Assembly (NCBI GenBank): GCA_964501945.1
Contig: CAZCTY010000001.1
Coordinates: 49,187-113,186, forward strand
Origin: an uncultured Methanosarcinales archaeon
GTDB lineage: Archaea; Nanobdellota; Nanobdellia; Woesearchaeales; 21-14-0-10-32-9
Reading direction: 5' to 3'
DNA length: 64,000 bases
The translations under genes were made by a program, and so were the position numbers. Below the pieces are notes generated by a model that saw nothing but the letters and a program-made list of their open reading frames with translations, was not told the DNA's origin and searched no databases. Of this stretch, positions 11,341 to 58,336 are shown one piece after another (the first letter of the stretch is position 1; every line of letters starts with the position of its first letter).

Positions 11341-11358
11341 AAAAACCTCATAAATACA

Positions 11359-12105: not shown

Positions 12106-12154
12106 TTTTTTCTTCTCTATTTTTTATTTTTTATAAAAAAAACAAAAAAAGAAT

Positions 12155-18100: not shown

Positions 18101-21100
18101 CAAAGACTTATTAACAAAATAAGAAAAAGAAGACGTCTCATTAAAATTACCAGAAGAATCATTAGCAAACCAAGAATAACTATAAAGACCAGCATCCAAA
18201 TCCTCAACTGAAAAACTATAAACACCATTAACTAAAAATAATTCTTTTTCAACAAATTCACCAGAGAAATTATGCTGAAGTAAAACAGTATCAACCCCAA
18301 AATTATCCTCCCAAGAAATATTAAAATAATAAACCCTCTCAGCATAACTAACAGGAGACTGCGGGCTAACAACGATGTCGCTATATTCAGGAGCCTCAGT
18401 ATCAACACTCAAAGAAAAATTCTCAGAGGCAAAACTCACCCTAGAACTTTTATCAACACATAAAACATTCCAAGAAAAAGAACCACTAGGAACACTAACA
18501 CTAAAAACGTTTTGTGAACCACTAACAGGACTTGAATCACTCGCGGTTTCCTCAAAAGAACCACTAACATTACTATACAAAAAACACTCATCAAGATTTT
18601 CATCAAAAGGAGTGTACACAAAATTCACATCATCAAAATTTAAAAAAGCACCATCCTCAGGAATGTTCAAATCAACCACGGGGTCAGTCAAATCAACAGT
18701 GAAAAACTCAACACTCGAAAAACCAATATTATTCTCAGAACTATTATCAACGCAAGAAACACTCCAATTATACAAACCCTCAGAAAAATCACTAAGAGAA
18801 AAAGTATTAACCTCAAAATTATCAACACTAAAACTTTGAGCATCTAACTCATCATCAACAAACAAAGAACAACTCTCAATGCCAGTCGCATCCTCAACTA
18901 AGTATTCAAATAAAATACTAGATGAATTCAAAAATTCATCACTCTCAGGATTTAAAAGAGAAATAACAGGAGGATCAGTATCCAAAGATTCAACAGTTAA
19001 AAAACGAGAATCACTAACCTCAAAGTTACCAAGAGAATCAAAACAACGAACGTTCCACTCATAATAATTATTAGATAAAAAAGTAGACATATTAAAAGGA
19101 ACCTCATCAACAATATCGCTCTTAGTTTCTCTAACAGAACCATTAACTAATAATTCACAATAATCAATACCAGAAACATCACAACACGCACCCGCAGAGA
19201 AAGTTACAACGTTAGTATCATCAATCAAAGCACCATCATCAGGACTGAACAAAGAAATATCAGGGCCGGATTGATCAATAATAAAAGACCACGCATCAGA
19301 AATACCATCATTACCAGCCTCATCAAAACAATGAACCTCCCACTCAAAAGTATTTTCAAACAACTCACGCTCAAAAGAATTAACAACACCTTCAATAGGA
19401 GAAGAATCCACATCAACAACTTCTAAGACGCCAGACTCATTTGTATGCAACTCACAATGACTAAGCGTGTTTTCCTCACTTGGAATATATGAAAAAGAAA
19501 CCAAAGAATCACTAGTTAAAAAATTATCAACAGGAGCTTCCAAACTAACAACAGGAGCAGTCCTATCAGTTATGTACTTGAAAACACTACTAGACTCAAC
19601 AGAATTACCAAATACATCATACGCAATAACCTTCCAATAATAAATGCGGTTAGCATCCAACGCGAAATCTAAAGAATACTCACTTTGAGAAATACTACTA
19701 GATGAGTAAACAAAATCAGGACTGCTAAGAGAAGGATTATCAGCAATGATTAAAGTGTAATTATCAAAATCAGGAGTCACAGTCTCCTCCCAAGACATAG
19801 TCGGATTTAACTCACGAGACTCCGTAGCATTAAGAGGATTTAACAAATCAAATTCGGTGGGAGGCACAACTTCAACCTCGAACCACAAATCAACACTTTT
19901 CTCACTGCTCTGACCAAGAGTATCGTTCGCCCAAATATTAGTTATGTTGTAAATGCCCTCATCTAAAGTATCTGTGAAAACAAAAAAGAATTCATCACCA
20001 TCTCTTTCTAACTCATGCTCAACAACAGAAGAATCAGGATACATCGCGGTTATAGAAGCAATATCAACACCGAAACTATCAGTTATACTAACACTAAAAC
20101 GAACAGACCTGTTCTGTCTTATGATTGTTTCATTAAGTGCTTCATTTTCAATTAACGGAGGCTGAGCGTTAATAAAAACAGTCCTATTATCATCAGCGAA
20201 AGCAAATCTTTCATCCTCGTTCTCACACCTAACGTTCCACTCATAAACACCATCACTAGGACTAAGACTAAAACTAGTAAGCGTATCAGTATCTACATCA
20301 CTGAGAGTAGCAGAAATATCCCATGAACCAGTAATATTAGTATAAAGATCACAAGTTAAAGTAGAATAAGTCTCATCACTAGCACTAAATGAAAAGTCTA
20401 CTGGGGTGTTAGAAACAATCTCATTATCACCAGGCGCACTCAAAGAAACCTCTGGCGGAGGCGTACCAGTATCAACTTCCAAGTAAGCCGCATAAACAAC
20501 GGCATCAGTAGGCCTACCACCACTCGCTCTTTCAACATGTCCAAAATGAACACTCAAATCATCAAGAGAACCAGAAGGATCACTCCAAGTACAACTAGAC
20601 CAAGAAGTAGAACTACCTCCTGGAACGAGATTACTACAAACAGTAGTTCCGCCTTGCCTTAAAGAATAAGTAAACTCAGCAGTATTACCAGTATTAGAAT
20701 ATACCCACAAAGTAATCTCCTCAACACCTGTCTCAACAACACTAGAAAAACCAAACTCAGACTCTTCCTCATCACCCATCCCACTTGCTATGCTGGTAGC
20801 GGTACTAGGCGCACTGGGCTGACGAGTACCTTTGCTGATTTGCGTGTAAGAAGTACCAGAACCAGAACTCCACTCAGTAGTTATATCGCTTGTAGGATCA
20901 TAATACGTAATAGGATCAATAGCCAAGTACCAAGGACGAGCCTCTTCAAATAATTTAACCTCACTTTCTTTCTCATAATCAATGAAACTTTGAAAAGCCC
21001 AAAGATACGGAATAATAAAAGGAGAATTAAAACTATATGAGGCAGAAAAATCACCATTTAAATTACTCCAAGTCAAATAAATATTATCAGCATCACGCGT

Positions 21101-40340: not shown

Positions 40341-41333
40341 TCAATTTTTTAATTTATTTTTTTTAATGACATCTCCATTAACATTAGCCTTTTCCAAAAC
40401 TTCTTTTTTTATGTCAAGCTCAACAAATTGCTCAGCACTAGCAATTTCCTCCTCAACCTCGTCTAACAAGTTTTTAACTTTGTCTCTTGCCTCAAAAGAA
40501 TTATCAACTTCTAAGAAATGAATCTTAGGCTTAATCAATTTAAGCTTCATAAAAGGAATAAGCATATCAATACCTCTCCTCCTTTTCGCAGATATCAAAG
40601 AATAAAGAGATTCATACCTCTCATTAATATCAGAAACATTAGCCTTTAAAACTTCCTCGTTTAAATAAGTATTTTGCTTCATTTTCTTTGTTTTTTCTAA
40701 AAGTTGCTCACTACGCTCAGATAATGAAGCAGGAGCTGAGGTCTCAAAATCTTTTTCAGTAGAGGAGTCTTTATTCAAACTATCATTTGTTGAAGAAGGC
40801 TGTTCTATTTTTTCAGAAACATTATTAGAAGCATCACTGTCATTAGAATTTTCGACATCTTCCTTTTTAGTTTTATTTACATCAACTTCTGTTTTATTCT
40901 CTGAATTATTTTCATCAAGAGAAGCCACATCATTTGATATATTTTCATCAGATTCTTTTTTATTTCTTTTAAACAGATTCTTTAGATAATTTTTTTCTTT
41001 TTTTCTTTTATTTTCATGAGGCTTACTAATATCAGTTTTATTTTTTTTTCTAAAACTAATCTTTTTTTTCTTTTTCTTTCCATTCAAATGCTCATTAAGA
41101 ATACTTAATAAATCCTCAGGAGAACTTTTTTTCGAAAAAGAGTTAGCCAAATCTTCTTTTCCAAAAAAGCCTCTAACCCAATTCGCATAATCATTATTAG
41201 TGTCAGTAACATGTCTTTGAAAATTATGAAGATTAATTCCCTTAACATTTTTTTCTAATTCTTCTTTCAATTCGCTTAAATCTCTGAGAACTTCACCATT
41301 ACTAAAATAAAAATATTTATCTGGACTAACCAT
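40341..41333 (-). CDS. 330-aa cytoplasmic protein: N-terminal KNDF-W-like module, K/N-rich linker, C-terminal coiled coil
   Basis: The N-terminus SNGEVLRDLSELKEELEKNVKGINLHNFQRHVTDTNNDYANWVRGFFGKEDLANSF aligns with the recurring module. Its start overlaps the upstream ATPase gene by 8 nt. Confidence 0.6.
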   Translation of the reverse strand: MVSPDKYFYFSNGEVLRDLSELKEELEKNVKGINLHNFQRHVTDTNNDYANWVRGFFGKEDLANSFSKKSSPEDLLSILNEHLNGKKKKKKISFRKKNKTDISKPHENKRKKEKNYLKNLFKRNKKESDENISNDVASLDENNSENKTEVDVNKTKKEDVENSNDSDASNNVSEKIEQPSSTNDSLNKDSSTEKDFETSAPASLSERSEQLLEKTKKMKQNTYLNEEVLKANVSDINERYESLYSLISAKRRRGIDMLIPFMKLKLIKPKIHFLEVDNSFEARDKVKNLLDEVEEEIASAEQFVELDIKKEVLEKANVNGDVIKKNKLKN

Positions 41334-44300
41334 TTCTAAGCACCTCTTTTATAGCTGCCCTATCTTTCGCATGACGAATTTTCTCAGCTAATTCTTTTTC
41401 ATCAAACACGTGCTCTACCCAATTTGCAAAGTCGTTTTTCTCAGAAGTTACGTGCTTATAAAAAATATCGTCAGAAATTTTATCTAATAAATTATAAAGA
41501 TCTTTTATACTATGCAATTTTAATCCAGTCTCAAGCAAGAATGTTTTATCATCAGGCGCAATTTTTTCAAAAGCAGAGGAAACCTTAGAAGAAGTTTCAT
41601 CATCGAATTGCTCTTCTTCATCCTCTTCTTGATTCTTTTTTTCAACAGATTCATCAGATGAAGCAGCAGATTCTTTTTTAATAACGTCTTCGCTATCACT
41701 GCTTTCTTTTTTTACAGGATCTTCTTTTTCATTGCTTTCATTTTTTTCGTTTTCTTGTTCTTTGTTTTCTGCTTCAGCGTTTCCTTGTGTTTCTTTTTCA
41801 GCGCTTTCTTGTTTGTTTTCGTCGGTTGCTTCTTGTTTGTTTTCTTGTGTTTCTTTTTCGGTGTTTTCTGGTTCGTTTTCGTCGGTTTCTTTTTCTTGTT
41901 TGTCGTCATTATCGTCTTTTTTGTTTTTTGTTTCAGCACTTTCTTGTGTTTCTTTTTCTTTTTCAGTGTTTTCTGGTTCGTTTTCGTCGGTTTCTTCTTT
42001 TTTGTCTTCAGACTCTTTTTTTTCTAAAGGAGGCAGTTTTTCACCCTTGCCACGCTTATCAAGCAAATCAAGAATTTCTTTTCTATCCTTAGTATTAGCT
42101 AAATGCTCGCCTAATTCAATGTCGCCGACAGCGTTTTTAAACCAATCAGCGAAATCATTCTTTTTATCATTAACATGAAATTCAAAATCAGAGTCTTTCA
42201 TGGCTTCAATTTCAGAATACAAACTACTAGGAGTTACAACTAACATGTCATTGTTAAGCTTTAAGATTTTATCAGGAGGAACATCTTTTTTAAATTTCTC
42301 AGAAGGACTCTCTTCTTTAGAATCTCCACCACTTTCTTCTTTTTTATTTTCTTTATCAAACTTATCACGCTCACTTTGCGCCTTTTTCAAATCTTTTTCC
42401 AACTCTTCTTTAGAAACCATTTTAGGCTTTAGAATCTTAGGTTCTTTACCAATCTTATCCCACAATTTCTTTAACCTAGGTTCAAGACCCTCAATGTAAA
42501 TTTTAACCATGTTAAAATTACCAGCCTTGACTTTATCAAGTGCTAATTTAAGCTCTAACTTTAAATCAAAAACATCCTGACCTTCCTCTTCTAATTGTTC
42601 CATTTCATAAGTCATCTGATCAATTTTTTTGTTATACTCATTATACTGAGAAATTTCATCATCACTCAAACGAGCAACAGAGTGCAAGATAGGCCTGAAA
42701 GTAGTAAAATAAGGCCGACCTCTATTGTAAGCAGAGTTTTGAACCATACCAGTACCAATACTTGCCTTAACTAAGCTTTGAAGAACATCCGCGCCATACT
42801 TAGTTTTAATACGATCAAGATCTCCCTCGTCCCTAGTTCTCATCTGAATTTCTGTGTTAATGTTAGCTTTAATTTGACCAACGAAATCCGCGAGTACCTG
42901 AGATATAAGCATAACACCAATACCCCACTTCCTAAACTCACGACAAGCACGCTCAATTTGCAAGAAACCCTCACCACTACCACCAAACTTAGGCAACAAC
43001 CTGTGAACCTCATCGTAAACCAAACAAAGCCTTAAAGGCTCAGACTCATCAAAATTAGCATGAAACACCTCTCGCACAGTGTTTGCTACGAAGATATCAA
43101 TATCTTTAGGATCAAGCTTGTGAACCGCAAATACCTGAATCTCACCCGGCTTCATATATTTACGAATATCAATTAACTCACGAGCATTATCAATTTGACG
43201 AATGTTACCAACAAAAGGACGCGCATCTTTAGGCTTCATACCAAAACTCGGATACAAACCCATCAAACCTTTATTTGTAAGCTTACGAAGCATACCAGTC
43301 CATTGAGCAGTAGGATCAAAAACAATAACAGCAACATCCTTCATTAACATTTCTTCAATAATAACTTGAGCGGAAAAACTCTTACCACCACCAGTACTAC
43401 CAGCTACGATTGTGTGAGTTTTAAAATTTTCAAGATTCATATAAGACTTCTTTTCAGTCTCAGCAATCTTACCAACAAAAGCACTACGAGGCCCAGGCTT
43501 AGGCAACTCAGAATATTCAACTTTTAAATGATACTTCTTTTTAGCCTCCATCCTTTTCTTAAAAACTATTATTCCAATAATAATACCAAAGAGCAACAAA
43601 CTTCCAAGAATAGCATGCCAAACCCGCACACCCCAAAACAAAGTATATTGGTGAAATGGCAAACTAACAGTGAAAACATGACTCGAACTAGAACTCAAAT
43701 CTAAATAATTCGCAGTTACACGAATAACATACTCACCAGGAGGTAAATTATTAGGCAACTCAACGTTTCTAAGCAAAGAAACAGTAGTCTTCAAGAAAAC
43801 ATTCGCAGACTGAGTCCAAATAGTTTCCTCACCAGAAATATCTTGAATGCTAAAGAGAACATTAACAGGATACTCCCTATCAGATAACATATTAGTAAGA
43901 TCAGTTCTAAACGTGAACCTAGAACCAGAATAAATAGTTCTATCAGACATACTAATACCAATAAGAAGAGCCTGAATAGGAATTTTATCTTTATCAAGAA
44001 TTTCAATCTCAACAGGAATATTCGCATCAATATCCCCAGTTATATTAATAGTACCATTATAAATACCAGGAGTTTGATTACCAAAGAAAGTTAAAGTAAC
44101 GCGACCATCACCCCTTGCACCAATAGAAATACTGTCCCTATCAATATTAGTAATATTTTTAAAATCACCAACTAAGTCAAAATTAACCTGCATGGTGCCA
44201 TCTCTAAAACTTTGAATAACAACAGTTTCTTGAGCAAACTCTCCCTCACGAATACGCTTAGTTATACGATTAAAAGGAATCCAAAATTCCTGCCCCTCAA

Positions 44301-45459
44301 TTTCAGCAGGACGCTCAATTTGAAAAGGAACCTCACCAGGACCAACATCTTCCCCAAAATCAGGGCCTATATCAGGATGCATATCAACAAAATCAACAGG
44401 AGGCGCATCTATCTCAAGCATTATATTATGCTCAGTTTCTTCATTTAATGTAACGTTTATATCACTCTCATAAGTAGAGTAACCTTCCAAAATAGCAATT
44501 ATCTTTGACGGGCCCGCCCTAGTAGTCAAGTTATAAAAACCTTGACCATCAGTTACAGTAGAATAACCTGCAACAGTTATCAAAACATCTTCCAAAGGAT
44601 TACCAGATAAATCAGTCACAGAACCATAAACAATACCTTGCTCCTCAGGCTCATCATCCCCTCCGACACAGACATTGAAAGGATCAATAAAAACATGATA
44701 CGTAGTGGTTGAATTGTCTATAATAGGTAACAAGAATTGATAATTATAAAAACGATTATTAAAACCTCTCGAAAGAGCCTCATTTAACTCAGCGACATAA
44801 ACATAATTATCGTTTTCATCTTTTAAAATACCAGTATTAAACATACCCTCAGGTGTATCGGTGCCAACATTAGTTTTAACAGCAGGAATATTACTAATCG
44901 TTCGCTCCCCAAGAGTTATACTCATAGTTTCAGTAAAAGTCTTAGTAGCAGAATCATAATAAGACGCATCAATACCGATGAGCGCATCAATTTCTTCAGG
45001 TGATGCAGGAGTTAGAGAGTTAATAGACACCTCGGCTTCAGGAACATAACTTGCAAATAACAAATTAACCTTATCAGGCTCAACACAATCAAAAAACATA
45101 TTCGCCTCATTAGTGCTACCTTGCTCAATATCAAACATCCACGGCTGTTCTTGACCCACACCGAAAGCAGCACCATACAAACCAGCCCAATTAAAAGCAG
45201 GCTTTTTATACAATAACTCCATTTGATAAATAGTCCCGCCAATACCTTCATGATACGCAACATAACCAGTATAAATAGTAGTAGACGCGAGCAAAATAAT
45301 ACTCAAAACAAATAAAGAAATTAATAATATGTCGCTAAAAGATTTACGCTTATTCTTTTTAGGAACTGAACGATTATTAATAGCATCATCAATACTAATA
45401 TCTTTTTCCTCAAACAATTTATTTACAAAATTCCTCAAATTCCACTTCTTCTTACTCAT
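41326..45459 (-). CDS. 1377-aa membrane-anchored FtsK/HerA/VirB4-superfamily (DUF87-like) P-loop ATPase with large extracellular domain and two C-terminal KNDF-W modules
   Basis: An N-terminal TM (ILLISLFVLSIILLASTTIY) is followed by an ectodomain of about 560 aa containing a carboxypeptidase-regulatory-like beta domain (GIVYGSVTDLSGNPLEDVLITVAGYSTVTDGQGFYNL). A second TM (WHAILGSLLLFGIIIGIIVF) is followed by the ATPase core: Walker A THTIVAGSTGGGKSF, IVFDPTAQW and Walker B CLVYDEVHRLLP. Then come a coiled coil, a KNDF-W module (KNDFADWFKNAVGD), an acidic low-complexity stretch of about 170 aa and a second module (KNDFANWVEHVFDEKELAEKI). Confidence 0.8.
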   Translation of the reverse strand: MSKKKWNLRNFVNKLFEEKDISIDDAINNRSVPKKNKRKSFSDILLISLFVLSIILLASTTIYTGYVAYHEGIGGTIYQMELLYKKPAFNWAGLYGAAFGVGQEQPWMFDIEQGSTNEANMFFDCVEPDKVNLLFASYVPEAEVSINSLTPASPEEIDALIGIDASYYDSATKTFTETMSITLGERTISNIPAVKTNVGTDTPEGMFNTGILKDENDNYVYVAELNEALSRGFNNRFYNYQFLLPIIDNSTTTYHVFIDPFNVCVGGDDEPEEQGIVYGSVTDLSGNPLEDVLITVAGYSTVTDGQGFYNLTTRAGPSKIIAILEGYSTYESDINVTLNEETEHNIMLEIDAPPVDFVDMHPDIGPDFGEDVGPGEVPFQIERPAEIEGQEFWIPFNRITKRIREGEFAQETVVIQSFRDGTMQVNFDLVGDFKNITNIDRDSISIGARGDGRVTLTFFGNQTPGIYNGTINITGDIDANIPVEIEILDKDKIPIQALLIGISMSDRTIYSGSRFTFRTDLTNMLSDREYPVNVLFSIQDISGEETIWTQSANVFLKTTVSLLRNVELPNNLPPGEYVIRVTANYLDLSSSSSHVFTVSLPFHQYTLFWGVRVWHAILGSLLLFGIIIGIIVFKKRMEAKKKYHLKVEYSELPKPGPRSAFVGKIAETEKKSYMNLENFKTHTIVAGSTGGGKSFSAQVIIEEMLMKDVAVIVFDPTAQWTGMLRKLTNKGLMGLYPSFGMKPKDARPFVGNIRQIDNARELIDIRKYMKPGEIQVFAVHKLDPKDIDIFVANTVREVFHANFDESEPLRLCLVYDEVHRLLPKFGGSGEGFLQIERACREFRKWGIGVMLISQVLADFVGQIKANINTEIQMRTRDEGDLDRIKTKYGADVLQSLVKASIGTGMVQNSAYNRGRPYFTTFRPILHSVARLSDDEISQYNEYNKKIDQMTYEMEQLEEEGQDVFDLKLELKLALDKVKAGNFNMVKIYIEGLEPRLKKLWDKIGKEPKILKPKMVSKEELEKDLKKAQSERDKFDKENKKEESGGDSKEESPSEKFKKDVPPDKILKLNNDMLVVTPSSLYSEIEAMKDSDFEFHVNDKKNDFADWFKNAVGDIELGEHLANTKDRKEILDLLDKRGKGEKLPPLEKKESEDKKEETDENEPENTEKEKETQESAETKNKKDDNDDKQEKETDENEPENTEKETQENKQEATDENKQESAEKETQGNAEAENKEQENEKNESNEKEDPVKKESSDSEDVIKKESAASSDESVEKKNQEEDEEEQFDDETSSKVSSAFEKIAPDDKTFLLETGLKLHSIKDLYNLLDKISDDIFYKHVTSEKNDFANWVEHVFDEKELAEKIRHAKDRAAIKEVLRNG
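41740..42000. repeat. Intragenic imperfect tandem duplication (unit roughly 100 bp) in the acidic low-complexity region of the ATPase gene
   Basis: ggtgttttctggttcgttttcgtcggtttct at about 41861 recurs as agtgttttctggttcgttttcgtcggtttct at about 41961. The protein reads KETDENEPENTEKE...KETDENEPENTEKE. Confidence 0.5.
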
Positions 45460-48870: not shown

Positions 48871-49132
48871 TATTGTCCTCAAAAAAACACTGCGTTAAAA
48901 CAAATTGTGTGTTTTTTGTAGTTTTTTATATGATTTTTGTATGACAAATGTAAGACATTTTATACCATTTTTGTATATTTGTATTACAAATGTGTGCTTT
49001 TTATACTTTTTTTGTGTGATGATAGTATATAAATGTTTTGGTTTTTAGAGAATAAAACAAAATTTACAATATGGAAAATAATTAAAAATTATTTATAAAA
49101 AAGAATTTAAACAAAACAAATATTATGATTGT
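48871..49132. promoter_or_regulatory. Divergent promoter/operator region with a repeated TTTTTGTAT / ACAAAT(T)GTGTG motif array
   Basis: acaaattgtgtgttttttgta (about 48899), atttttgtatgacaaatgt (about 48933) and atttttgtatatttgtattacaaatgtgtgc (about 48967). The TTTGTA/TACAAA half-sites are mutually inverted. TATA-like tttataaaa lies about 35 nt before the 49133 ATG. Confidence 0.4.
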
Positions 49133-49843
49133 ATGTTTGAGCCAAAAACTGTTTTTAAAAAAAACTTTCTTATATTAATTTTTATAATTCTATTAATGGT
49201 CCAAGTTCAAGCAAACGAATTATACGCAGATATAGAAATAAGACTAAATCAGAGAGGGGATGCAATAATTACAGGTGTGACAAATCACCCAACGCTTATA
49301 GGAACCTATAAAGACATGACTTCAAAACAAGAACAATACTGGCTTTTTAACTTAACAAAAGAAAATTTCACTAGCGCACTTTTTCGCATAGATTTCCCTG
49401 AAGATGTTATCATAACATATATAAGAAGCACAGCACGAATAAATATTGGAGCTGATGACGCGCCTTTTATTAAAGGAACATTAAGAAATAAACCACTAGA
49501 AATAATAGTACAATACTATTTTGACGAACCTTCTGAAGTGAGAACAAACTATTTACAAATAATAATCAGCACTATACTTATATTATTAGGAATATATATA
49601 ATGTTTTTTCATAAAAAGAAAAAAGAGAGTATAAAAGAAGAAAAGGGTCTAAGCGAGAGACAAAAAAAAATTATAGAACTTCTGGGAAAAAAAGACGGCG
49701 TAACACAAAAATACATAGAAGAAAAATTAAACTTGCCAAAATCATCAATTTCAAGAAACATATCAACACTTGAGAGAAAAGGCATAATAAAAAAAATAAC
49801 AAAAGGATTTAGCAACACAATATATTTGAATAAAAACAAATAA
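49133..49843 (+). CDS. Membrane-tethered winged-HTH transcriptional regulator (extracytoplasmic domain, TM helix, cytoplasmic wHTH)
   Basis: N-terminal signal/TM (FLILIFIILLMVQVQA). An ectodomain of about 130 aa. The TM is ISTILILLGIYIMFF. The cytoplasmic tail LSERQKKIIELLGKKDGVTQKYIEEKLNLPKSSISRNISTLERKGIIKK is a MarR/ArsR-type wHTH. Confidence 0.6.
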   Translation: MFEPKTVFKKNFLILIFIILLMVQVQANELYADIEIRLNQRGDAIITGVTNHPTLIGTYKDMTSKQEQYWLFNLTKENFTSALFRIDFPEDVIITYIRSTARINIGADDAPFIKGTLRNKPLEIIVQYYFDEPSEVRTNYLQIIISTILILLGIYIMFFHKKKKESIKEEKGLSERQKKIIELLGKKDGVTQKYIEEKLNLPKSSISRNISTLERKGIIKKITKGFSNTIYLNKNK

Positions 49844-52391: not shown

Positions 52392-53267
52392 TTAAGGAAC
52401 TGTAGCAGTAAACCTCAAAGTACCAACACACTCCCCGAAAGGATTAGGCGGCACGAATAACCTCCAATAAAGTGACGATTCAACAGGTGAGGTAGCATCA
52501 GTAGGCTGCAAAAGAGTAATACCAACATCCTGATAATCAGAACTCAACGCAGTTTTTTCCTCCCACAAATTGTCAGTGTCTAAAGAAAAACGCTGATTTT
52601 CAACAGTTATGTTAGAACCCTCATCACAAACCAAACCTAAACCATCACCTTCCTCAACGCCATAACCTAAGACACTAACATTAATATCAACATTACCAAA
52701 ATTAGTAATGGACGATAAAACATCAGGACTGTAATCTAAAACAGATAAGTCTCCATAATCAATAGTATCAGTAACATTGAGAGCATATAATTCATTTATA
52801 GTCGTCTCATTTTCCAAAGAGTCAACAAAACCAAAAGAATCCTCAGCACTCACATTACAAACCCAATCACCATTATTAGCATAATGCAAAACCTCAAATG
52901 TACATGAAGAATAAGCTATGTACTCCCCATCATTATCATAAATCTCACAACTACTATTAGTATAATGAAGATTACCATCATCAACGTCACCACTAAAACT
53001 GTCAGGCTCATAAAAGAAAGTTCCATTAACAGCAATTACATCTTCCCAACCATTCCAATCACGAATAGATGCATTACAATAAACAGTCTTCACGCCTCCA
53101 GCATTAAGAGTTATGTCCTCATCAACAATAACTTCTAAAATCTCAGGCACCGCATTAGTAATGTTTGCCCTCGTGATAACATCAACGTCTTCATAATTAT
53201 AAGCGCTAACGCTACTTATAAGAAGCACTAAGCTAAACACTGCAAACGTTAATATATTAAATTTCAT
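52392..53267 (-). CDS. Secreted protein, cassette family A (copy A2)
   Basis: Paralog of 10441..11340 (KTVYCNASIRDWNGWEDVIAVNGTFF, HYTNSSCEIYDNDGEYIAYSSCTFEVLHYANNGDWVCNVSAEDSFGF, CVGTLRFTATVP). Confidence 0.7.
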   Translation of the reverse strand: MKFNILTFAVFSLVLLISSVSAYNYEDVDVITRANITNAVPEILEVIVDEDITLNAGGVKTVYCNASIRDWNGWEDVIAVNGTFFYEPDSFSGDVDDGNLHYTNSSCEIYDNDGEYIAYSSCTFEVLHYANNGDWVCNVSAEDSFGFVDSLENETTINELYALNVTDTIDYGDLSVLDYSPDVLSSITNFGNVDINVSVLGYGVEEGDGLGLVCDEGSNITVENQRFSLDTDNLWEEKTALSSDYQDVGITLLQPTDATSPVESSLYWRLFVPPNPFGECVGTLRFTATVP

Positions 53268-53269
53268 AA

Positions 53270-53980
53270 TTATCCGCCCAACTCCACATAAAAGTAATAA
53301 GTCGTTGTATCTTCAGGATTGTTAGCCATAATTAACTGAAAATCAAATAAAGACCCGCCATCATAACCAACAGTTGAAGGATTAATAGGCGTTACATAAA
53401 TCAAGTCAGTAGGATCTTCTAATAATACAATAGGAAAATCCGAACCACTCTGATCTTGCCTAGCACTATCAACGAAGGTACTAGTCGCAGGACAATTATC
53501 CTGATCAGCCAAACCAACAGTTATAGTAGGGTGAACAGTTTCATTGAAAGTATTGGAAATACTATCAGCAGAAGCACTACTTATCGAGAGAAAAGACTCT
53601 TCTGAGGAAATAGTCGCACCAGCTGCACAATCAATATCTCCCCAATCAATGCTATCACTCCTACTCGAATAAATCTCACCGCTAATACTTGCTTGATCAA
53701 GAGCCCAATTAAAGATAGTATTGCCATCACCATCATCAAGAGTTAAACTACCTGTGATGTTCCCTACGTAGGCTTTCCACCTAGGGTTTTGCTGAAGAGC
53801 ATCAACAACTAAAGTAGTAATAGTACCTCCATCGTCAGTCCTACTATCAGGCGGACTTTCTTCAACCAAGTCAGTAACAATGTGGGTGACATCTGTTCCA
53901 GTCGGCTGAGCTAAGACGAAGGAGGAAACAATTAATACGAACCCTACAAACAAAGCCAAAAAACTCAAATTCTTAATCAT
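53270..53980 (-). CDS. Secreted protein, cassette family B (copy B2)
   Basis: The signal peptide ends in VLAQPTG. Motifs PRWKAYVGNITGSLTLDDGDGNTIFNWAL, IDWGDIDCAA and the C-terminal TTYYFYVELGG. Confidence 0.7.
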   Translation of the reverse strand: MIKNLSFLALFVGFVLIVSSFVLAQPTGTDVTHIVTDLVEESPPDSRTDDGGTITTLVVDALQQNPRWKAYVGNITGSLTLDDGDGNTIFNWALDQASISGEIYSSRSDSIDWGDIDCAAGATISSEESFLSISSASADSISNTFNETVHPTITVGLADQDNCPATSTFVDSARQDQSGSDFPIVLLEDPTDLIYVTPINPSTVGYDGGSLFDFQLIMANNPEDTTTYYFYVELGG

Positions 53981-54008
53981 TTTAATTCATTCCCTCCTAT
54001 GTATTGTC

Positions 54009-54731
54009 TTATTGCAACTCCAAGTAAAAGTAGTACGGAGTAGGATTTTCATCAGTACCGTCTTCACCAACAAGTAATTGGAAATGCCAAGGAAGACCAT
54101 CGAAACCAGCAGGACTAGTATCTTCTATTATGGTTGTGTAAACCATATCATCTCCTGCCTTTAACAAAACCTGCCAAAAAGCATTACCTTGCTCACCACT
54201 CGCATTATATGCTTGAGTCGTAGGACAACCAGTAATCGCTTGACCACCAACTTCAAAAGCAGGGTGATCTGTATTAGTAAAAGTATTATTAACACTATCA
54301 GGATCATCAGGCGATTGACCCAAAGCAGCCGCCTCATCAGATATATCAGTTACATCAGGACACAAAATAGTATCCCAACTCACAGCATCGTTCCTACTAG
54401 CATAAACCTGACCTGTAGGTACAGAAACATTCCAGTCATAAAAATTATTACCACTAGAATCTGCAAGGACAATTTCCCCTGTTATGTTACCATAGAAACC
54501 TTGCCAATGCCTAGTTACAGACAAACCATGCAAGGACAATTCAGTCACATTACCTGCCTGCGCATCAACTTCTTGCGGCGCGATTTCTTCTTCAAACCTC
54601 GAACTCTCTATTACGTCTGCTGTCTCAGCACCCAAAGGCTGCGCTGCTACAAAACTTACCATTAGTAGCAAAGAGAGAGCAAACACTCCCAAAAAATATG
54701 TTCTCCCCTTCATTTTCTTTTTTTCCTCCAA
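54009..54731 (-). CDS. Secreted protein, cassette family C (copy C2)
   Basis: The signal peptide ends in FVAAQP. Motifs HWQGFYGNITGEIVLADSSGNNFYDWNVSVPTGQVYASRNDAVSWDTILCPD and the C-terminal TPYYFYLELQ. Confidence 0.7.
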   Translation of the reverse strand: MEEKKKMKGRTYFLGVFALSLLLMVSFVAAQPLGAETADVIESSRFEEEIAPQEVDAQAGNVTELSLHGLSVTRHWQGFYGNITGEIVLADSSGNNFYDWNVSVPTGQVYASRNDAVSWDTILCPDVTDISDEAAALGQSPDDPDSVNNTFTNTDHPAFEVGGQAITGCPTTQAYNASGEQGNAFWQVLLKAGDDMVYTTIIEDTSPAGFDGLPWHFQLLVGEDGTDENPTPYYFYLELQ

Positions 54732-54749: not shown

Positions 54750-55322
54750 TTAAGTTATCATCCTCTTACTAATTTTATGAGGATCGTAAATAGGATAGTA
54801 GCTTTCTTGAGATGCCTCAACATCACCAACAGTGATTTCTTCAACACCCAAACCATCAACTAATTTTTTTGAAACATTATCCTTGAAAATTATTTTAACA
54901 CTTGATTTAGGAGATTCTTCAACAAAAATCCCAGCTATTTGATCGATGCTTTCTTTTAACGCGAAGTACGTTTTTTCTATTTCCTCGTGCTTGTTACTGT
55001 ATGGATAGAGCCAAATTTTAATCAAAGCTTTTTTGTGCTCGTCAATACTGATCATTTTTTTCTCAACGAAACCATCAGCTGTTACAATTAAGTAAGCATT
55101 ATCTTTCGCGATGCTATAAACAACTCTTGGCTGGCCCTTGTCACGATTACTTATTCTCTCACTTTTTACGATGTTTGCAAGCTCGAGGAATCTTAATGAT
55201 TGGCTGATGTTTGACATTGAAGTATTTGCAAGCTTTGCCAATTCTAAAGGTGATTTTTTTTCTCGAGCTAACGCTTTCAAAATGTTCCATTTTGCGCTTG
55301 TAAAAAGTGTCTCTTGATCCAT
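54750..55322 (-). CDS. Winged-HTH transcriptional regulator (ArsR/MarR-like N-terminal domain plus C-terminal domain), first gene of the C2-B2-A2 cassette
   Basis: The start is taken at the internal ATG MDQETLF (the track ORF extends to 55385). The wHTH segment is AKWNILKALAREKKSPLELAKLANTSMSNISQSLRFLELANIVKSERISNRDKGQPRVVYSI. Confidence 0.6.
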   Translation of the reverse strand: MDQETLFTSAKWNILKALAREKKSPLELAKLANTSMSNISQSLRFLELANIVKSERISNRDKGQPRVVYSIAKDNAYLIVTADGFVEKKMISIDEHKKALIKIWLYPYSNKHEEIEKTYFALKESIDQIAGIFVEESPKSSVKIIFKDNVSKKLVDGLGVEEITVGDVEASQESYYPIYDPHKISKRMIT

Positions 55323-55515
55323 TTTTGCTCTTTTTTCTCTCCTAAACAAACACAAAAATGCGTCTTTTAAGCCACGTATATACAAAATCGTTGCTTGTGG
55401 CTTTTAGTATACATTTTTGTATTCTGATTTAATCAATGTGATAGCTCATATTTAAATGTTTCGTTTTTTACAATAAAATTTAATTTGTAGAAGTTGAAAA
55501 TAAACAAAAATAAAG

Positions 55516-55549
55516 TTATTACACTAATTAAGTTATTTATGAATTAGTT
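55516..55549. repeat. Left copy of a perfect 34-bp inverted repeat (ttattacactaattaagttatttatgaattagtt)
   Basis: It is the exact reverse complement of 57045..57078. The pair was found by direct comparison of the two intergenic regions. Confidence 0.75.
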
Positions 55550-55593
55550 ATTTTTAAAGCCTGAAAACTAAAAATTTTTGATAATTGCAGAAA

Positions 55594-56349
55594 TCAATAA
55601 ATTTCTGCAAAGAAATAATAAGTTGTAGGATCGGCAGCAGTCGGATCTTCAGGAACAATTAATTGAAAATCATAAAACTGAGAATCATAACCAACTTGAG
55701 CTTGCTCTATTAACGATGCAAAAACCAAATTACTAGATCCATCTTCAAGCAAAATTTCCTGGAAACTAGACTCGACAGACGGCTCTTGCCTAGCATCATC
55801 AACGTAAGTTGCAATAGCTCTACAAGAACTTTCAACTATTTGAGTGGTTCCAACAAAGAAACTCCTATGAATTGTTTCGTTAAACGTTCTATTTATACTA
55901 TCAGCACTCTCATCATCAATATTCAAATTGAGTTGCTCACTTAATATGCTCTGCTCACTCGCACAATCTATGCTTGCCCAATCAATATCTTCATGACGTG
56001 TAACATAAACTTGACCTGAAACAGTGACTAAATCCCAATCATAAATAGATTGGCTGCTCGCATCTTGCAGAGCAAGTCTACCGGAGACGTTACCAACATA
56101 CGCTTTCCAACGAGGAGTTTGAAAAGTACCATTTAAAACAAGCGTAGTAAATGTTCCGCCAGCAGTAGTTAACTCGGCAGCAGGCTCAGGAGTAATAGTT
56201 TCAGTTTCGTTTAGTGATATATCTACACCGGCAGGCTGAGCACTAACACTGCTTGAAATATTTAAAGCCCCAAAAGAGCTTGTTATGAGTAAAACTAAGA
56301 GGAATACAATAACTAATTTCTCCATCCGCAAATTAGTCGCTTTACTCAT
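55594..56349 (-). CDS. Secreted protein, cassette family B (solo copy B3) inside the IR-bounded segment
   Basis: The signal peptide ends in SVSAQPAG. Motifs PRWKAYVGNVSGRLALQDASSQSIYDWDL, IDWASIDCAS and the C-terminal TTYYFFAEIY. Confidence 0.7.
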   Translation of the reverse strand: MSKATNLRMEKLVIVFLLVLLITSSFGALNISSSVSAQPAGVDISLNETETITPEPAAELTTAGGTFTTLVLNGTFQTPRWKAYVGNVSGRLALQDASSQSIYDWDLVTVSGQVYVTRHEDIDWASIDCASEQSILSEQLNLNIDDESADSINRTFNETIHRSFFVGTTQIVESSCRAIATYVDDARQEPSVESSFQEILLEDGSSNLVFASLIEQAQVGYDSQFYDFQLIVPEDPTAADPTTYYFFAEIY

Positions 56350-56845
56350 TTTTTACACCTTTTTTATCGAGCTTTTTTTTGGCCCTGCTCAAAACAGTCC
56401 AAACAGTTTTCTCATTTTTTCCTAAAATTAAAGCAATTTTTTTAACACTAAATCCAAGATTTTTCAAATACAGAGAAACAGACTCTAAAACAGACAATTC
56501 TCTATTTTTTAGAACATCACTACTTATGCTGACGGTTGGGCAAGAATTGTTTTCCTTGAAGAAAATTTGCTTGGATTTGGCTTTGTTGTAAGTTACCCAA
56601 ACAGTTCTTTGATCTCGGTTAATTAAAGAACCTATCTTAGAGTATTGCATAGAATGTTGCTCTTTTAGATATTTTACAATCGCCTCTAAACCGCTAAGTC
56701 CTTGTCTGAAAATCTCGCAAGGAATACTTATTTTGATGCCTTCATCAATGTTTTGAAGGTTTTGATTGAAATTATTTTGCGAGATGGAGAGCTCCATTTT
56801 GCTTTCATAAGAATTTTTATCAATAGAGCTCTCTGTAAAAAACAT
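56342..56845 (-). CDS. Small regulator with two tandem sigma70-region-4/LuxR-like HTH modules
   Basis: The two internal repeats are LSGLEAIVKYLKEQHSMQYSKIGSLINRDQRTVWVTYNKAKSK and LSVLESVSLYLKNLGFSVKKIALILGKNEKTVWTVLSRAKKKL. It overlaps B3 by 8 nt. Confidence 0.55.
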   Translation of the reverse strand: MFFTESSIDKNSYESKMELSISQNNFNQNLQNIDEGIKISIPCEIFRQGLSGLEAIVKYLKEQHSMQYSKIGSLINRDQRTVWVTYNKAKSKQIFFKENNSCPTVSISSDVLKNRELSVLESVSLYLKNLGFSVKKIALILGKNEKTVWTVLSRAKKKLDKKGVKNE

Positions 56846-56948
56846 AAATACTTATTATGTGGGGTTTATTTATAAATGTTTTGATGATGTTTTTAATAAA
56901 TGCTTATTATGTAAGATTAATTTTTTTATTAATACTTATTATGTAGGG
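56846..56948. repeat. Three direct repeats AA(T)RCTTATTATGTRRG in the promoter of the double-HTH regulator
   Basis: aaatacttattatgtgggg (56846), aaatgcttattatgtaag (56898) and taatacttattatgtaggg (56930). Spacings are 52 and 32 bp. TATA-like tttataaat lies at about 56871. Confidence 0.5.
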
Positions 56949-57044
56949 TTGTTTTTTAGGGGTTTTTTAGTTTTTGGGGTTGTTGTTTTGGCGTTGTGTT
57001 TTTTTGCGATTGTTTATAATTTTGCTTTTTTAGGGCTTTAAATA

Positions 57045-57078
57045 AACTAATTCATAAATAACTTAATTAGTGTAATAA
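57045..57078. repeat. Right copy of the perfect 34-bp inverted repeat (aactaattcataaataacttaattagtgtaataa)
   Basis: Exact reverse complement of 55516..55549. Confidence 0.75.
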
Positions 57079-57262
57079 ATTAAATTTATTGTTTAATGAA
57101 GTATTGTGGTTTATGAAGTGTTGTGTTTTTTAAAATATTGTTTTTTTATAATTATTGTGGGATATGTAATTGTGAATTAGCGGTATTGTGGACGAGAAAA
57201 ACTAAAAAAAACAATTTATGCGTAGAAAAAACTAAAAAATAAGAATGAAAAACAACGAAAAA

Positions 57263-58336
57263 TCAATTTTTATGATTATCAAAAGGCTCTAAGAAATTAC
57301 TAAGTTGTTGATTTACCATGATAAAAGTCGTACGCTTACTAAACTCACGCAGATTCCTCGCACCGATATAAGTTCCCGTACTACGAAGAGAACCAAGAAC
57401 TTCCTGAACGAAATTATTAACGTCGCCTTTGTAAGGCACCTCTGTAGTTCTACCTTCGCTCGCGCGATGCTCATCAACTTTTCCGTAGAATTTGTTCATA
57501 GCGGTTTTTGAGCTCATCCCGAAGTGTTCTTTGAATTTTTGACCATTCTTTTCAATCAAGTCTCCTCCGCTCTGCTCATAACCTGCAAACATAGAACCAA
57601 CCATGACAAAGTCAGCTCCACCACCAAAAGCCTTTGCAATACACGAAGGGCTGGTAATTCCTCCATCACTCATAATTCTCCCAGCGCCTTCTCCTTTGCT
57701 TATGCCGTGAGCAGCGTCTCCGCATTCTATTACTGCGCTTAGCTGAGGATAGCCAACACCTGTTTGTTTTCGCGTTAGACAAGCACTACCACTCCCAATA
57801 CCAATTTTTACTATGTCTGCCCCTTCTAATAATAATTGTTCTGTTATCTCATTTGTTACAACGTTACCAGCAATTATTATATGCTCAGGGCATAAGCTTC
57901 TGAGTTTTTTTACTGCGCCTGAAAATCTTTCTAAGTATCCGTTAGGAACATCTAAACAAAGAAAGCTAAAGTTATCTAACAATTTTTTTTCTTTCATAAA
58001 ATGTAATTTTTCAAAGTCCTCATCTCTAATACCTAAGGTGTATGCTACATAATCAGGATTGTTAAATTCTTGAAAGAATTTTTCAAATTCTTCAACGGAG
58101 TAAAATTTATGAAAAGCAGTAATCATTTTGTGTTTGCTTAACGCATGCGCCATGCCAAACGTTCCTGAAGTTGCCATGTTCGCCGTGATTATAGGAATAC
58201 CGGTCCAAGTCTTAGGCGAGTGTAAGAATTTAAATGTACGCTCTAAAACAACATCTTTTCTAGATGTTAGGGTGCTTCGCTTCGGCCTTATTAATACGTT
58301 CGAAAAATCTAACTTGGGTTCATGATCTATTCTCAT
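57263..58336 (-). CDS. guaC: GMP reductase
   Basis: The protein aligns along its whole length with GuaC (LDFSNVLIRPKRSTL, GIPIITANMATSGTFGMA, CLDVPNGY, IIAGNVVT, GADIVKIGIGSGSACLTRKQTGVGYPQLSAVIECGDAAHG, SDGGITSPSCIAKAFGGGADFVMVGSMFAG). It is 357 aa and has no CBS insert. Confidence 0.88.
   Translation of the reverse strand: MRIDHEPKLDFSNVLIRPKRSTLTSRKDVVLERTFKFLHSPKTWTGIPIITANMATSGTFGMAHALSKHKMITAFHKFYSVEEFEKFFQEFNNPDYVAYTLGIRDEDFEKLHFMKEKKLLDNFSFLCLDVPNGYLERFSGAVKKLRSLCPEHIIIAGNVVTNEITEQLLLEGADIVKIGIGSGSACLTRKQTGVGYPQLSAVIECGDAAHGISKGEGAGRIMSDGGITSPSCIAKAFGGGADFVMVGSMFAGYEQSGGDLIEKNGQKFKEHFGMSSKTAMNKFYGKVDEHRASEGRTTEVPYKGDVNNFVQEVLGSLRSTGTYIGARNLREFSKRTTFIMVNQQLSNFLEPFDNHKN

What the first reader, a model, noticed from the sequence alone, without database searches (positions are those of the whole stretch)
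55516..57078. A 1.56-kb two-gene cassette (B3 plus double-HTH regulator plus repeat array) bounded by perfect 34-bp inverted repeats
The 34-mer at 55516..55549 is the exact reverse complement of 57045..57078. A chance occurrence is negligible in 64 kb. The bounded segment carries a solo B paralog, its own small regulator and promoter repeats, but no transposase or recombinase. That is consistent with a non-autonomous mobile or invertible cassette that delivers or swaps surface-protein variants.
Basis: seen in the sequence. Interest (0 to 1): 0.7.

Follow-up and report, generated by a model that had tools for sequence, protein, structure and literature searches.

The report
Inverted regulatory repeats flanking an archaeal operon
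A perfect 34-bp inverted repeat really does flank a regulator-plus-secreted-protein operon in this DPANN (Woesearchaeota-type) archaeon, but it is not a jumping cassette: both arms are copies of a conserved control element of the neighbouring operon, and one related genome carries the same two genes flipped in place.

Summary
55516-55549 is the exact reverse complement of 57045-57078, and chance cannot explain it. The arms are longer than reported (87 nt at 79%).

The 'mobile cassette' reading is not supported. I found no target-site duplication, no transposase or recombinase in the ORFs scanned across the 64 kb, and no third copy. The order REG -> B3 -> ArsR-like -> B -> B(-> C) recurs in 13 other Woesearch/Nanoarchaeota genomes.

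The left arm is the core of a ~58-nt module found next to B3 and upstream of the ArsR-like gene in 12 related genomes. It lies a fixed ~52-58 nt before that operon's BRE/TATA in the five genomes aligned. The right arm is an inverted paralogue of this module. It is shared with relative L008, where the arms have diverged to ~71%. Their 34/34 identity here therefore implies gene conversion.

The 'invertible' reading is partly supported. In relative L092 the REG-B3 segment, also flanked by inverted modules, sits flipped in place between the same neighbours.

The promoter travels with the genes, so flipping would not switch or swap a surface protein. Whether flipping happens within populations could not be tested.

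The parts
55516..55549 (.). Left arm, perfect 34-bp core. It contains the dyad ACTAATT-N12-AATTAGT.
57045..57078 (.). Right arm, perfect 34-bp core (exact reverse complement of the left).
55507..55593 (-). Extended left arm, the ancestral copy of the conserved module. In gene orientation it reads T-tracts, GGCTTTAAA, then the TAATT-rich core. It starts right after the B3 stop and ends about 56 nt before the ArsR-like BRE/TATA.
57001..57087 (+). Extended right arm, an inverted paralogue of the module. It is orthologous to the inverted copies upstream of REG in L008.
55594..56349 (-). B3: a 251-aa secreted protein (Sec-type signal peptide, by eye) of a Woesearchaeota-wide family. It has no Pfam match and no PDB fold match, and paralogues B1/B2 lie downstream.
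56342..56845 (-). REG: a 167-aa regulator with two sigma-70-region-4/LuxR-like HTH halves. It overlaps the B3 start by 8 nt, so the two genes form an operon.
56851..56946 (-). Three operator-like repeats (C/T)TACATAATAAG, with half-sites CTTA-N5-TAAG, at 56851-62, 56903-14 and 56935-46. They are conserved at REG promoters in L006, L008, L009, L091 and L092, and in the window occur only here.
56867..56883 (-). Putative archaeal BRE/TATA of REG (CAAAACATTTATAAATA). It ends about 21 nt before the ATG, which implies a leaderless mRNA, and it lies inside the repeat-bounded segment.
   Evidence: Read from the sequence and conserved in the alignment. Assignment as a promoter is inferred.
56946..57015 (.). 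G/T-rich (A/C-rich in gene orientation) 14-15-nt tandem repeats between the right arm and the operators. L008 has the homologous stretch.
57091..57160 (.). A 17-nt tandem repeat (x4, CACAATAC in gene orientation) just outside the right arm. It forms the junction with the IMPDH/GMP-reductase gene.
55449..55466 (-). BRE/TATA of the ArsR-like operon (AAAACGAAACATTTAAAT), outside the segment. It is nearly invariant in L006, L008, L092 and L093.
54750..55322 (-). ArsR-like wHTH regulator (190 aa from the ATG at 55322). It is the first gene of the downstream operon ArsR-B2-B1-C.

Best explanation
The 1.56-kb segment is a resident, vertically inherited two-gene operon (autoregulated REG plus secreted protein B3). 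It belongs to a conserved Woesearchaeota surface-protein cluster and is not a mobile cassette.

Its two borders carry inverted copies of one conserved cis-element. The ancestral copy (left arm) lies between the B3 stop and the promoter of the next operon (ArsR-like, B2, B1, C), at a fixed distance upstream of that promoter. It is most likely a protein-binding upstream control site combined with the T-tract terminator of B3. The right arm is an inverted paralogue that arose before this lineage split from L008.

The cores of the two arms are kept identical here by gene conversion. The same recombination, general (RadA-type or template-switch) rather than programmed, occasionally resolves as a crossover and flips REG-B3 in place, as fixed in relative L092. 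Because REG's promoter and operators flip with the genes, inversion changes the wiring from tandem to divergent with the ArsR-like operon. It does not switch or swap a surface protein.

Shown: the repeat, the conservation and position of the module, the shared ancestry of the right arm, and the inversion in L092. Inferred: protein binding, gene conversion, and the recombination pathway.
For: The repeat is real and non-random.

An nhmmer model of the arm finds the module in gene orientation beside B3 and upstream of the ArsR-like gene in L006, L008, L009/L011, L012, L013, L021, L057, L091, L092 and L093 and in L100. Inverted copies upstream of REG occur only in the window, L008 and L092.

The spacing from module to BRE/TATA is about 52-58 nt in the window, L008, L093, L092 and L006. 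In L092 one copy stays with the ArsR-like promoter even though B3 has moved away.

Tandem REG>B3>ArsR-like synteny holds in 13 other genomes.

L092 compared with L006: neighbour gene X is 80% identical and reversed, operators+REG+B3 are 72% and forward, and ArsR-like plus promoter plus module is 74% and reversed. That is a clean in-place inversion. Its arms are 55 nt at 80%, and by eye their longest exact shared run is under 20 nt, so a misassembly through the repeat is unlikely.

The whole REG upstream region, including the inverted module, is collinear between the window and L008. Yet the L008 arms are only ~71% alike, while the window arms are 34/34 identical and share lineage-specific bases.

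Module copy number differs between samples of one species: L098 has 2 copies and L100 has 1, in otherwise 99.7% identical DNA. The array is therefore recombination-prone.

The module shows no RNA structure signal and no Rfam match. No recombinase or transposase domain was found in the 29 ORFs scanned, all but one of them 100 aa or longer, across the 64 kb.
Against: Only one inverted genome was found, against 13 tandem ones, so the inversion could be a single accident unrelated to the repeats. L006 and L091, the closest tandem relatives of L092, show no clear inverted module upstream of REG. The L092 inversion may therefore have created its inverted arrangement rather than used one.

No binding data exist, and which regulator binds the module, if any, is unknown.

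Identity of 34/34 could also come from very strong co-selection of two binding sites, or from the requirements of a site-specific recombinase encoded elsewhere in the genome.

The right arm does not have the same geometry relative to the REG promoter that the left arm has relative to the ArsR-like promoter, so a regulatory role for the right arm is unproven.
Confidence: 0.58

Rival explanations
1. Programmed inverton. A site-specific recombinase encoded elsewhere in the genome binds the dyad inside the 34-bp core and reversibly flips REG-B3. This would give population heterogeneity in how the two surface-protein operons are wired: tandem, with possible read-through, or divergent with a shared control region.
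For: The arms are perfect 34-bp copies with an internal 7-N12-7 dyad. They border surface-protein genes, as many bacterial invertons do (abstracts listed). Both orientations exist among relatives that have inverted modules: the window and L008 are tandem and L092 is flipped. In Ureaplasma, inversions at short repeats next to surface-protein genes have been described (PMC3047005, abstract). Archaeal invertons are barely explored; 12 putative ones came from 42 long-read datasets (PMC10028968).
Against: No recombinase domain was found in the 64 kb scanned. The promoter and operators lie inside the segment, so flipping does not uncouple a promoter from a gene. The core is conserved as a single copy in most relatives, so its primary role is not recombination. 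The arms in L008 and L092 are only 71-80% alike. The ENA and Logan contigs recovered for this strain all show the same orientation or are uninformative.
Confidence: 0.15
2. Operator sites only. Both arms are binding sites for the locus regulators, for example bridging the two sites to loop out or insulate REG-B3. Their identity is kept purely by selection, and the L092 inversion is an unrelated illegitimate rearrangement.
For: The core is the most conserved part of the module across species. It has dyad symmetry. By eye, its outer half (TTACACTAATTAAG) resembles the REG operator (TTACATAATAAG). The left arm keeps a fixed distance to the ArsR-like promoter.
Against: Selection alone does not readily explain identity at positions that vary freely between species (AAC against TAA/TAT within the core). 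In L008 the same two sites have been allowed to diverge to ~71%. The right arm is inverted and about 170 nt from the REG TATA, unlike the left arm's geometry. The L092 breakpoints fall at or within the module arrays.
Confidence: 0.17
3. Non-autonomous mobile cassette (a MITE-like or composite element with 34-bp terminal inverted repeats) that delivers a B paralogue and its regulator.
For: Inverted repeats border a gene pair that lacks a transposase. A Logan contig spans exactly the segment.
Against: There is no target-site duplication at any boundary offset. There are no further copies in the window, and the degenerate-core scans gave 0 hits in viral contigs and only one unrelated low-complexity hit in JGI metagenomes. 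REG-B3 sits at the same place next to the ArsR-like operon in 13 other genomes, most without a second arm. Similarity decays gradually inward rather than ending at defined termini. The Logan contig boundary is a k=31 graph artefact of a 34-bp inverted repeat: the contig runs 55520-57074, leaving k-1=30 nt of each arm.
Confidence: 0.03

Closest known systems
Bacterial invertons and phase-variable DNA inversions (fimS/FimBE, hin/hix, Bacteroides invertible promoters, Ureaplasma mba locus)
   Same: Short inverted repeats border a segment next to surface-protein genes. Both orientations of the segment are seen among related genomes. The core contains a dyad of the sort recombinases bind.
   Different: The segment carries a whole operon with its own promoter, so inversion would not switch expression on or off or exchange coding ends. 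No recombinase was found in 64 kb, within-population switching has not been shown, and the host is a DPANN archaeon. The arms derive from a regulatory module that is single-copy in most relatives.
Chromosomal inversion and gene conversion by homologous recombination between inverted paralogous repeats (as between inverted IS copies or rRNA operons)
   Same: Inverted paralogous sequences flank the inverted interval. The arms evolve in concert in one lineage and diverge in another. Copy number of the same repeat varies between strains.
   Different: The arms are very short (34 bp perfect, about 87 bp in all) and are intergenic control DNA rather than IS or rRNA genes. The interval is only about 1.5 kb.
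Archaeal upstream operator/UAS elements of wHTH regulators (ArsR/SmtB-type dyad operators; upstream activating sites of Lrp/Ptr2-type regulators). This comparison rests on general knowledge, not on a test here.
   Same: The element is AT-rich with dyad symmetry. It lies at a conserved distance upstream of a BRE/TATA, next to genes for locus-specific HTH regulators, and is repeated in arrays.
   Different: The binding protein is unknown, one copy is inverted and distant from any promoter in the same geometry, and the element has not been described before.
MITEs and non-autonomous transposons
   Same: Terminal inverted repeats and no transposase inside.
   Different: No target-site duplication, not dispersed, 1.56 kb carrying two conserved syntenic genes, and present in relatives that lack one of the repeats.

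Membership tests
Non-autonomous transposable element / mobile cassette | Terminal inverted repeats with defined ends | tested here: inconclusive
   A perfect 34-bp IR is present. However, similarity continues inward for about 50 nt at roughly 70% and there is no defined terminus.
Non-autonomous transposable element / mobile cassette | Target-site duplication flanking the repeats | tested here: not met
   There is no direct repeat of 4 nt or more at any of 18 boundary offsets. Only trivial 2-3-nt AT matches occur.
Non-autonomous transposable element / mobile cassette | Multiple dispersed copies, or presence/absence (empty-site) polymorphism | tested here: not met
   The window holds only two copies. 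Pattern scans gave 0 relevant hits in JGI metagenomes and viral contigs. The module occurs only at this locus in about 90 fetched loci. REG-B3 is syntenic in 13 other genomes. The rest of this genome was not available.
Non-autonomous transposable element / mobile cassette | Cognate transposase somewhere in the genome | not testable with these tools
   None was found in the 64-kb window.
Programmed inverton (site-specific DNA inversion switch) | Inverted repeats flanking the invertible segment | tested here: met
   Also met in L008 and L092.
Programmed inverton (site-specific DNA inversion switch) | Both orientations coexisting within one population or strain | not testable with these tools
   All contigs recovered for this strain show one orientation or stop at the repeat.
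Programmed inverton (site-specific DNA inversion switch) | Both orientations found among related genomes | tested here: met
   L092 is inverted in place relative to L006, L091, L008 and the window. It is 1 inverted genome against 13 tandem ones.
Programmed inverton (site-specific DNA inversion switch) | Dedicated tyrosine or serine recombinase (usually adjacent) | tested here: not met
   Pfam scans of 29 ORFs of the window, all but one of them 100 aa or longer, gave no recombinase, integrase or transposase hit. The called genes on L092 and L008 carry no such Pfam hit either. An unlinked enzyme cannot be excluded.
Programmed inverton (site-specific DNA inversion switch) | Inversion uncouples or recouples a promoter and a gene, or exchanges coding segments | tested here: not met
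   The REG BRE/TATA and all three operators lie inside the segment. The ArsR-like promoter lies outside and is unaffected. No silent B copy abuts either arm.
Cis-regulatory operator/upstream element | Conserved sequence at a conserved position relative to a promoter across species | tested here: met
   This holds for the left arm. The module is found in 12 related genomes, about 52-58 nt upstream of the ArsR-like BRE/TATA in the five aligned. It is not met for the right arm.
Cis-regulatory operator/upstream element | Dyad symmetry or repeated half-sites | tested here: met
   ACTAATT-N12-AATTAGT lies in both arms. TAATT repeats recur in the orthologues.
Cis-regulatory operator/upstream element | Bound by a regulator, with an effect on transcription | not testable with these tools
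   This needs EMSA or DAP-seq, plus TSS and expression data.
Structured non-coding RNA | Stable or conserved secondary structure, or a known family | tested here: not met
   Fold z-scores run from -1.2 to +1.1 for five orthologous modules. No Rfam match was credible; the best is E=0.16 at 17 bits against a 100-bit threshold.

The most novel reading that the evidence does not exclude
The 34-bp core is the crossover site of a genuine archaeal inverton in a DPANN (Woesearchaeota-type) genome. An unlinked recombinase would reversibly flip a regulator-plus-secreted-protein operon. This would toggle the locus between a tandem and a divergent arrangement with the neighbouring surface-protein operon, and so create cell-surface heterogeneity in an episymbiont-type archaeon.
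Probability: 0.13. Interest if true: 0.7.

Novelty: new variant of a known kind. Interest (0 to 1): 0.4.

Why it matters
DNA inversion switches are central to surface variation in bacteria but are almost unexplored in archaea. One survey found 12 putative cases in 42 long-read datasets (PMC10028968), and my literature searches found nothing for DPANN.

This locus gives a concrete, cheap test case. It has a defined 34-bp crossover candidate, both junction sequences can be predicted, there are public read sets from at least two samples, and a relative already has the flipped state fixed.

Even under the ordinary reading, the work defines three things: a previously undescribed conserved control module, a REG operator motif, and the organisation of a widespread, unannotated Woesearchaeota secreted-protein cluster. 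It also shows that such short regulatory repeats drive copy-number change, gene conversion and inversion in these small genomes.

Tried and rejected
- **Logan contig as evidence of excision or mobility.** Logan contig L003 equals window 55520-57074. I rejected it as evidence: a 34-bp inverted repeat longer than k=31 forces a unitig break exactly there. The ArsR-side Logan contigs behave the same way.
- **Other copies in public collections.** An exact-core pattern gave 0 hits in JGI metagenomes and 0 in viral contigs. A degenerate core gave one hit, L090, which is a low-complexity TTAATTAATT stretch in eukaryote-like DNA with sparse ORFs and is unrelated.
- **Target-site duplications.** None.
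- **RNA element.** No credible Rfam match, and folds are no better than shuffles.
- **A wider operator regulon.** TTACATAATAAG occurs only at the REG promoter in the window, and looser forms are at chance level.
- **Inverted variant of the same strain.** Exact-protein look-ups for B3, REG and the ArsR-like protein gave only the known orientation.
- **Second inverted example or an empty site.** ArsR-seeded look-ups found none, but did reveal module copy-number variation.
- **Identity of B3.** It has no Pfam hit. The AF2 model is confident (pLDDT 82.6) but has no PDB Foldseek match (best E=0.2).
- **Replication-origin ORB idea.** Considered from memory and dropped. No orc/cdc6 gene turned up in the ORFs scanned, cumulative GC skew shows no turning point at the locus, and the arms are 1.4 kb apart around genes.
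Full report
**1. The observation**

The 34-mer TTATTACACTAATTAAGTTATTTATGAATTAGTT lies at 55516-55549. Its exact reverse complement lies at 57045-57078. There is no third copy in the window at up to 3 mismatches, and no dinucleotide shuffle reproduced even a pair. By my own estimate, the chance expectation for a perfect 34-bp inverted repeat in 64 kb of this base composition is about 1e-10. It is also the only strong inverted repeat within 10 kb anywhere in the window.

The arms are longer than reported. 55507-55593 pairs with 57001-57087 over 87 nt at 79%. The extra similarity runs mainly inward and decays gradually, so the 34-mer is a perfect core inside an older repeat.

**2. What lies between and around the arms**

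The organism is a DPANN archaeon of the Woesearchaeota/Nanoarchaeota type. This follows from the source names on homologues and from a Hef-type helicase-nuclease in the flank. All genes in this part of the window read on the minus strand. In gene orientation the order is:

- an IMPDH/GMP-reductase-family gene (57263-58336);
- a 417-nt spacer, containing 17-nt tandem repeats, the right arm, an A/C-rich 14-15-nt repeat stretch, three operator-like repeats (C/T)TACATAATAAG, and a BRE/TATA-like CAAAACATTTATAAATA ending about 21 nt before the ATG;
- REG (167 aa, two sigma-70-region-4-like HTH halves);
- B3 (251 aa, signal peptide, no Pfam hit), overlapping REG by 8 nt;
- the left arm;
- the promoter AAAACGAAACATTTAAAT;
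- an ArsR-like wHTH gene, then B2, B1, C and a CARDB-like 406-aa protein.

Pfam scans of 29 ORFs across the window, all but one of them 100 aa or longer, gave no recombinase, integrase or transposase hit. No target-site duplication exists at any boundary offset.

**3. Same-strain data**

Two ENA MEGAHIT contigs from other samples are 99.9% identical across the region and have the same orientation. A Logan contig corresponds exactly to window 55520-57074. This looks like an excised cassette but is what a k=31 de Bruijn graph must produce for a 34-bp inverted repeat. The flanking Logan contigs likewise start inside the core. These data therefore say nothing for or against inversion. Raw reads could not be examined.

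**4. Relatives**

B3 has hundreds of homologues in Woesearch/Nanoarchaeota. I fetched contexts by exact-protein look-ups and 79 genome loci seeded on REG.

A tblastn map shows the order REG > B3 > ArsR-like > B > B (> C), all on one strand, in L006, L008, L021, L022, L027, L038, L040, L047, L057, L070 and L072. L093 and L100 have the same order. That makes 13 genomes besides the window. The pair is thus an old, fixed part of the cluster, which argues strongly against a recently delivered cassette.

The three operator repeats at the REG promoter are conserved in L006, L008, L009, L091 and L092. In the window they occur nowhere else. This fits autoregulation, which is an inference.

**5. What the arms are**

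In gene orientation the left arm reads T-tracts, GGCTTTAAA, then a TAATT-rich core ending in GTGTAAT. An nhmmer model built from the two arms and iterated finds this roughly 58-nt module in the same orientation in twelve related genomes. It lies just after B3 in most of them and always upstream of the ArsR-like gene. The genomes are L006 (3 tandem copies), L008, L009/L011, L012, L013, L021, L057, L091 (2 copies), L092, L093 and L100.

Its distance to the ArsR-like BRE/TATA is about 52-58 nt in the window, L008, L093, L092 and L006. In L021, where the B3-to-ArsR-like spacer is long, the module sits in the half nearer the ArsR-like gene.

The module has no RNA-structure signal and no Rfam match. 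I therefore read it as a DNA-level upstream control element of the ArsR-like operon, fused to the T-tract terminator of B3. The binding protein is unknown. By eye, the outer half of the core (TTACACTAATTAAG) resembles the REG operator (TTACATAATAAG), which makes REG a candidate. That is inference only.

**6. Origin of the right arm**

Inverted copies of the module upstream of REG are significant only in the window (alignment score 99 against 32 or less in shuffles) and in L008 (63 against 36 or less). L092 also has them (55 nt at 80%).

The whole REG upstream region of the window and L008 is collinear: CACAA-type repeats, inverted module, A/C-rich spacer, and three operators around the TATA box. 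The inverted copy therefore predates the split of these two lineages, whose B3 proteins are 75% identical.

In L008 the inverted and direct copies are only about 71% alike. In the window the cores are 34/34 identical and share bases that differ from every other species. The simplest account is recent gene conversion between the arms, meaning the arms do recombine physically. Very strong co-selection is the alternative.

**7. Evidence for inversion**

L092 is a JGI metagenome contig whose IMPDH is 83%, ArsR-like protein 66% and B3 63% identical to the window. It has this order: <B2 <ArsR-like | module(-) | operators | REG> B3> | module(+) module(+) | <X.

Its closest tandem relative, L006, has X> | operators REG> B3> | modules | ArsR-like>. 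X is also the upstream neighbour in L091 and L008.

A blastn comparison shows X at 80% identity and reversed, operators+REG+B3 at 72% and forward, and ArsR-like plus promoter plus last module at 74% and reversed. By eye, the longest exact run shared by L092's arms is under 20 nt, so a misassembly through the repeat is unlikely.

Two caveats apply. It is one genome out of fourteen. And L006 and L091 lack a clear inverted module upstream of REG, so the L092 event may have created its inverted arrangement, with a breakpoint inside a tandem module array, rather than exploited an existing one.

Independently, module copy number differs between samples of one species: L098 has 2 copies and L100 has 1 in otherwise 99.7% identical DNA. 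Contigs also often end in these arrays. The region is recombination-prone.

**8. Consequence of flipping**

A crossover within the core would leave REG's promoter, its operators and B3's T-tracts attached to the genes. The ArsR-like promoter would stay in place. Nothing is switched on or off, and no alternative B gene is brought to an expression site. Only the relative arrangement changes, from tandem to divergent, bringing the REG operators to within a few hundred nt of the ArsR-like promoter. The 'swap surface-protein variants' idea is therefore not supported.

**9. Verdict**

- The mobile-cassette reading is rejected (confidence about 0.03).
- Best explanation (0.58): a resident operon flanked by inverted paralogues of a conserved control module. 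The arms are homogenised by gene conversion and can undergo occasional recombination-mediated inversion.
- Rivals: a programmed inverton with an unlinked recombinase (0.15), and pure operator sites with no recombination role (0.17).

The discriminating experiment is junction-spanning read counting in the source runs. Literature searches found no description of such elements in DPANN archaea, and archaeal invertons in general are barely studied. The finding is of moderate interest: probably ordinary repeat-driven genome dynamics, but a well-defined and cheaply testable candidate for an archaeal inversion switch.

Noticed in passing
window 10441-12931 (- strand) versus 52392-54731: A second paralogous secreted-protein cluster (C', B, B) lies here. 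Its C' gene shares about 80% nucleotide identity over 470 nt with the C gene of the studied cluster. The five B paralogues are 32-44% identical to B3 and share an invariant C-terminal YYF.xE motif.
   Followed up: partly
window 15191-22600 (2469-aa ORF, C-terminus): The giant surface protein ends in ...YDFEVRVP...LAFYIEII. This resembles the conserved C-terminus of the B family (DFQLIVP...YYFYAEI) and suggests a shared C-terminal sorting or assembly signal across the island of very large proteins (15-48 kb).
   Followed up: no
window 55594-56349 (B3) and homologues: The B family has 548 hits at E<=1e-3, is restricted to Woesearch/Nanoarchaeota-type MAGs, and has no Pfam domain. A confident AF2 model (pLDDT 82.6, mostly beta) has no PDB Foldseek match better than E=0.2. 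The fold may be undescribed.
   Followed up: partly
window 55349-55423 (ArsR-like 5' leader): An inverted repeat, GATACAAAA...N25-30...TTTTGTATC, lies between the ArsR-like TATA box and the ATG. The arms are 27 nt at 74% in the window, and the repeat is conserved in L006, L008, L092 and L098. It is probably the ArsR-like autoregulatory operator or a leader hairpin.
   Followed up: partly
L098:1-220 versus L100:1157-1380: Two samples of one species (99.7% identical DNA) differ by a tandem duplication of about 155 nt that contains the module. MEGAHIT and Logan contigs repeatedly end in these arrays.
   Followed up: yes
window 57079-57262, and L006/L091/L092/L008: The 912-936-aa gene X, which precedes REG in L006, L091 and L008 and adjoins the flipped segment in L092, has no homologue in the window. 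In L091 and L092, IMPDH is separated from REG-B3 by about 5-6 kb that also holds a cold-shock-domain gene and other ORFs. Here IMPDH abuts the REG upstream region, so the outer flank of the right arm is a lineage-specific deletion or rearrangement junction.
   Followed up: partly
window 48905-49015: Tandem repeats (an 11-nt unit x3.6 and a 41-nt unit x1.9) lie in the divergent intergenic region upstream of a MarR/DUF7343-type regulator gene (49133-49843). This may be another repeat-rich control region of the surface-protein island.
   Followed up: no
window 41326-45459: A 1377-aa protein combines a carboxypeptidase-regulatory-like domain with a HerA/DUF87 ATPase domain and DUF5752. It lies inside the surface-protein gene row. 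The architecture is unusual and was not examined.
   Followed up: no
L090:2430-2464: The only JGI metagenome hit to the degenerate core pattern is a TTAATTAATT low-complexity stretch in eukaryote-like DNA with sparse ORFs. It is a chance match.
   Followed up: yes
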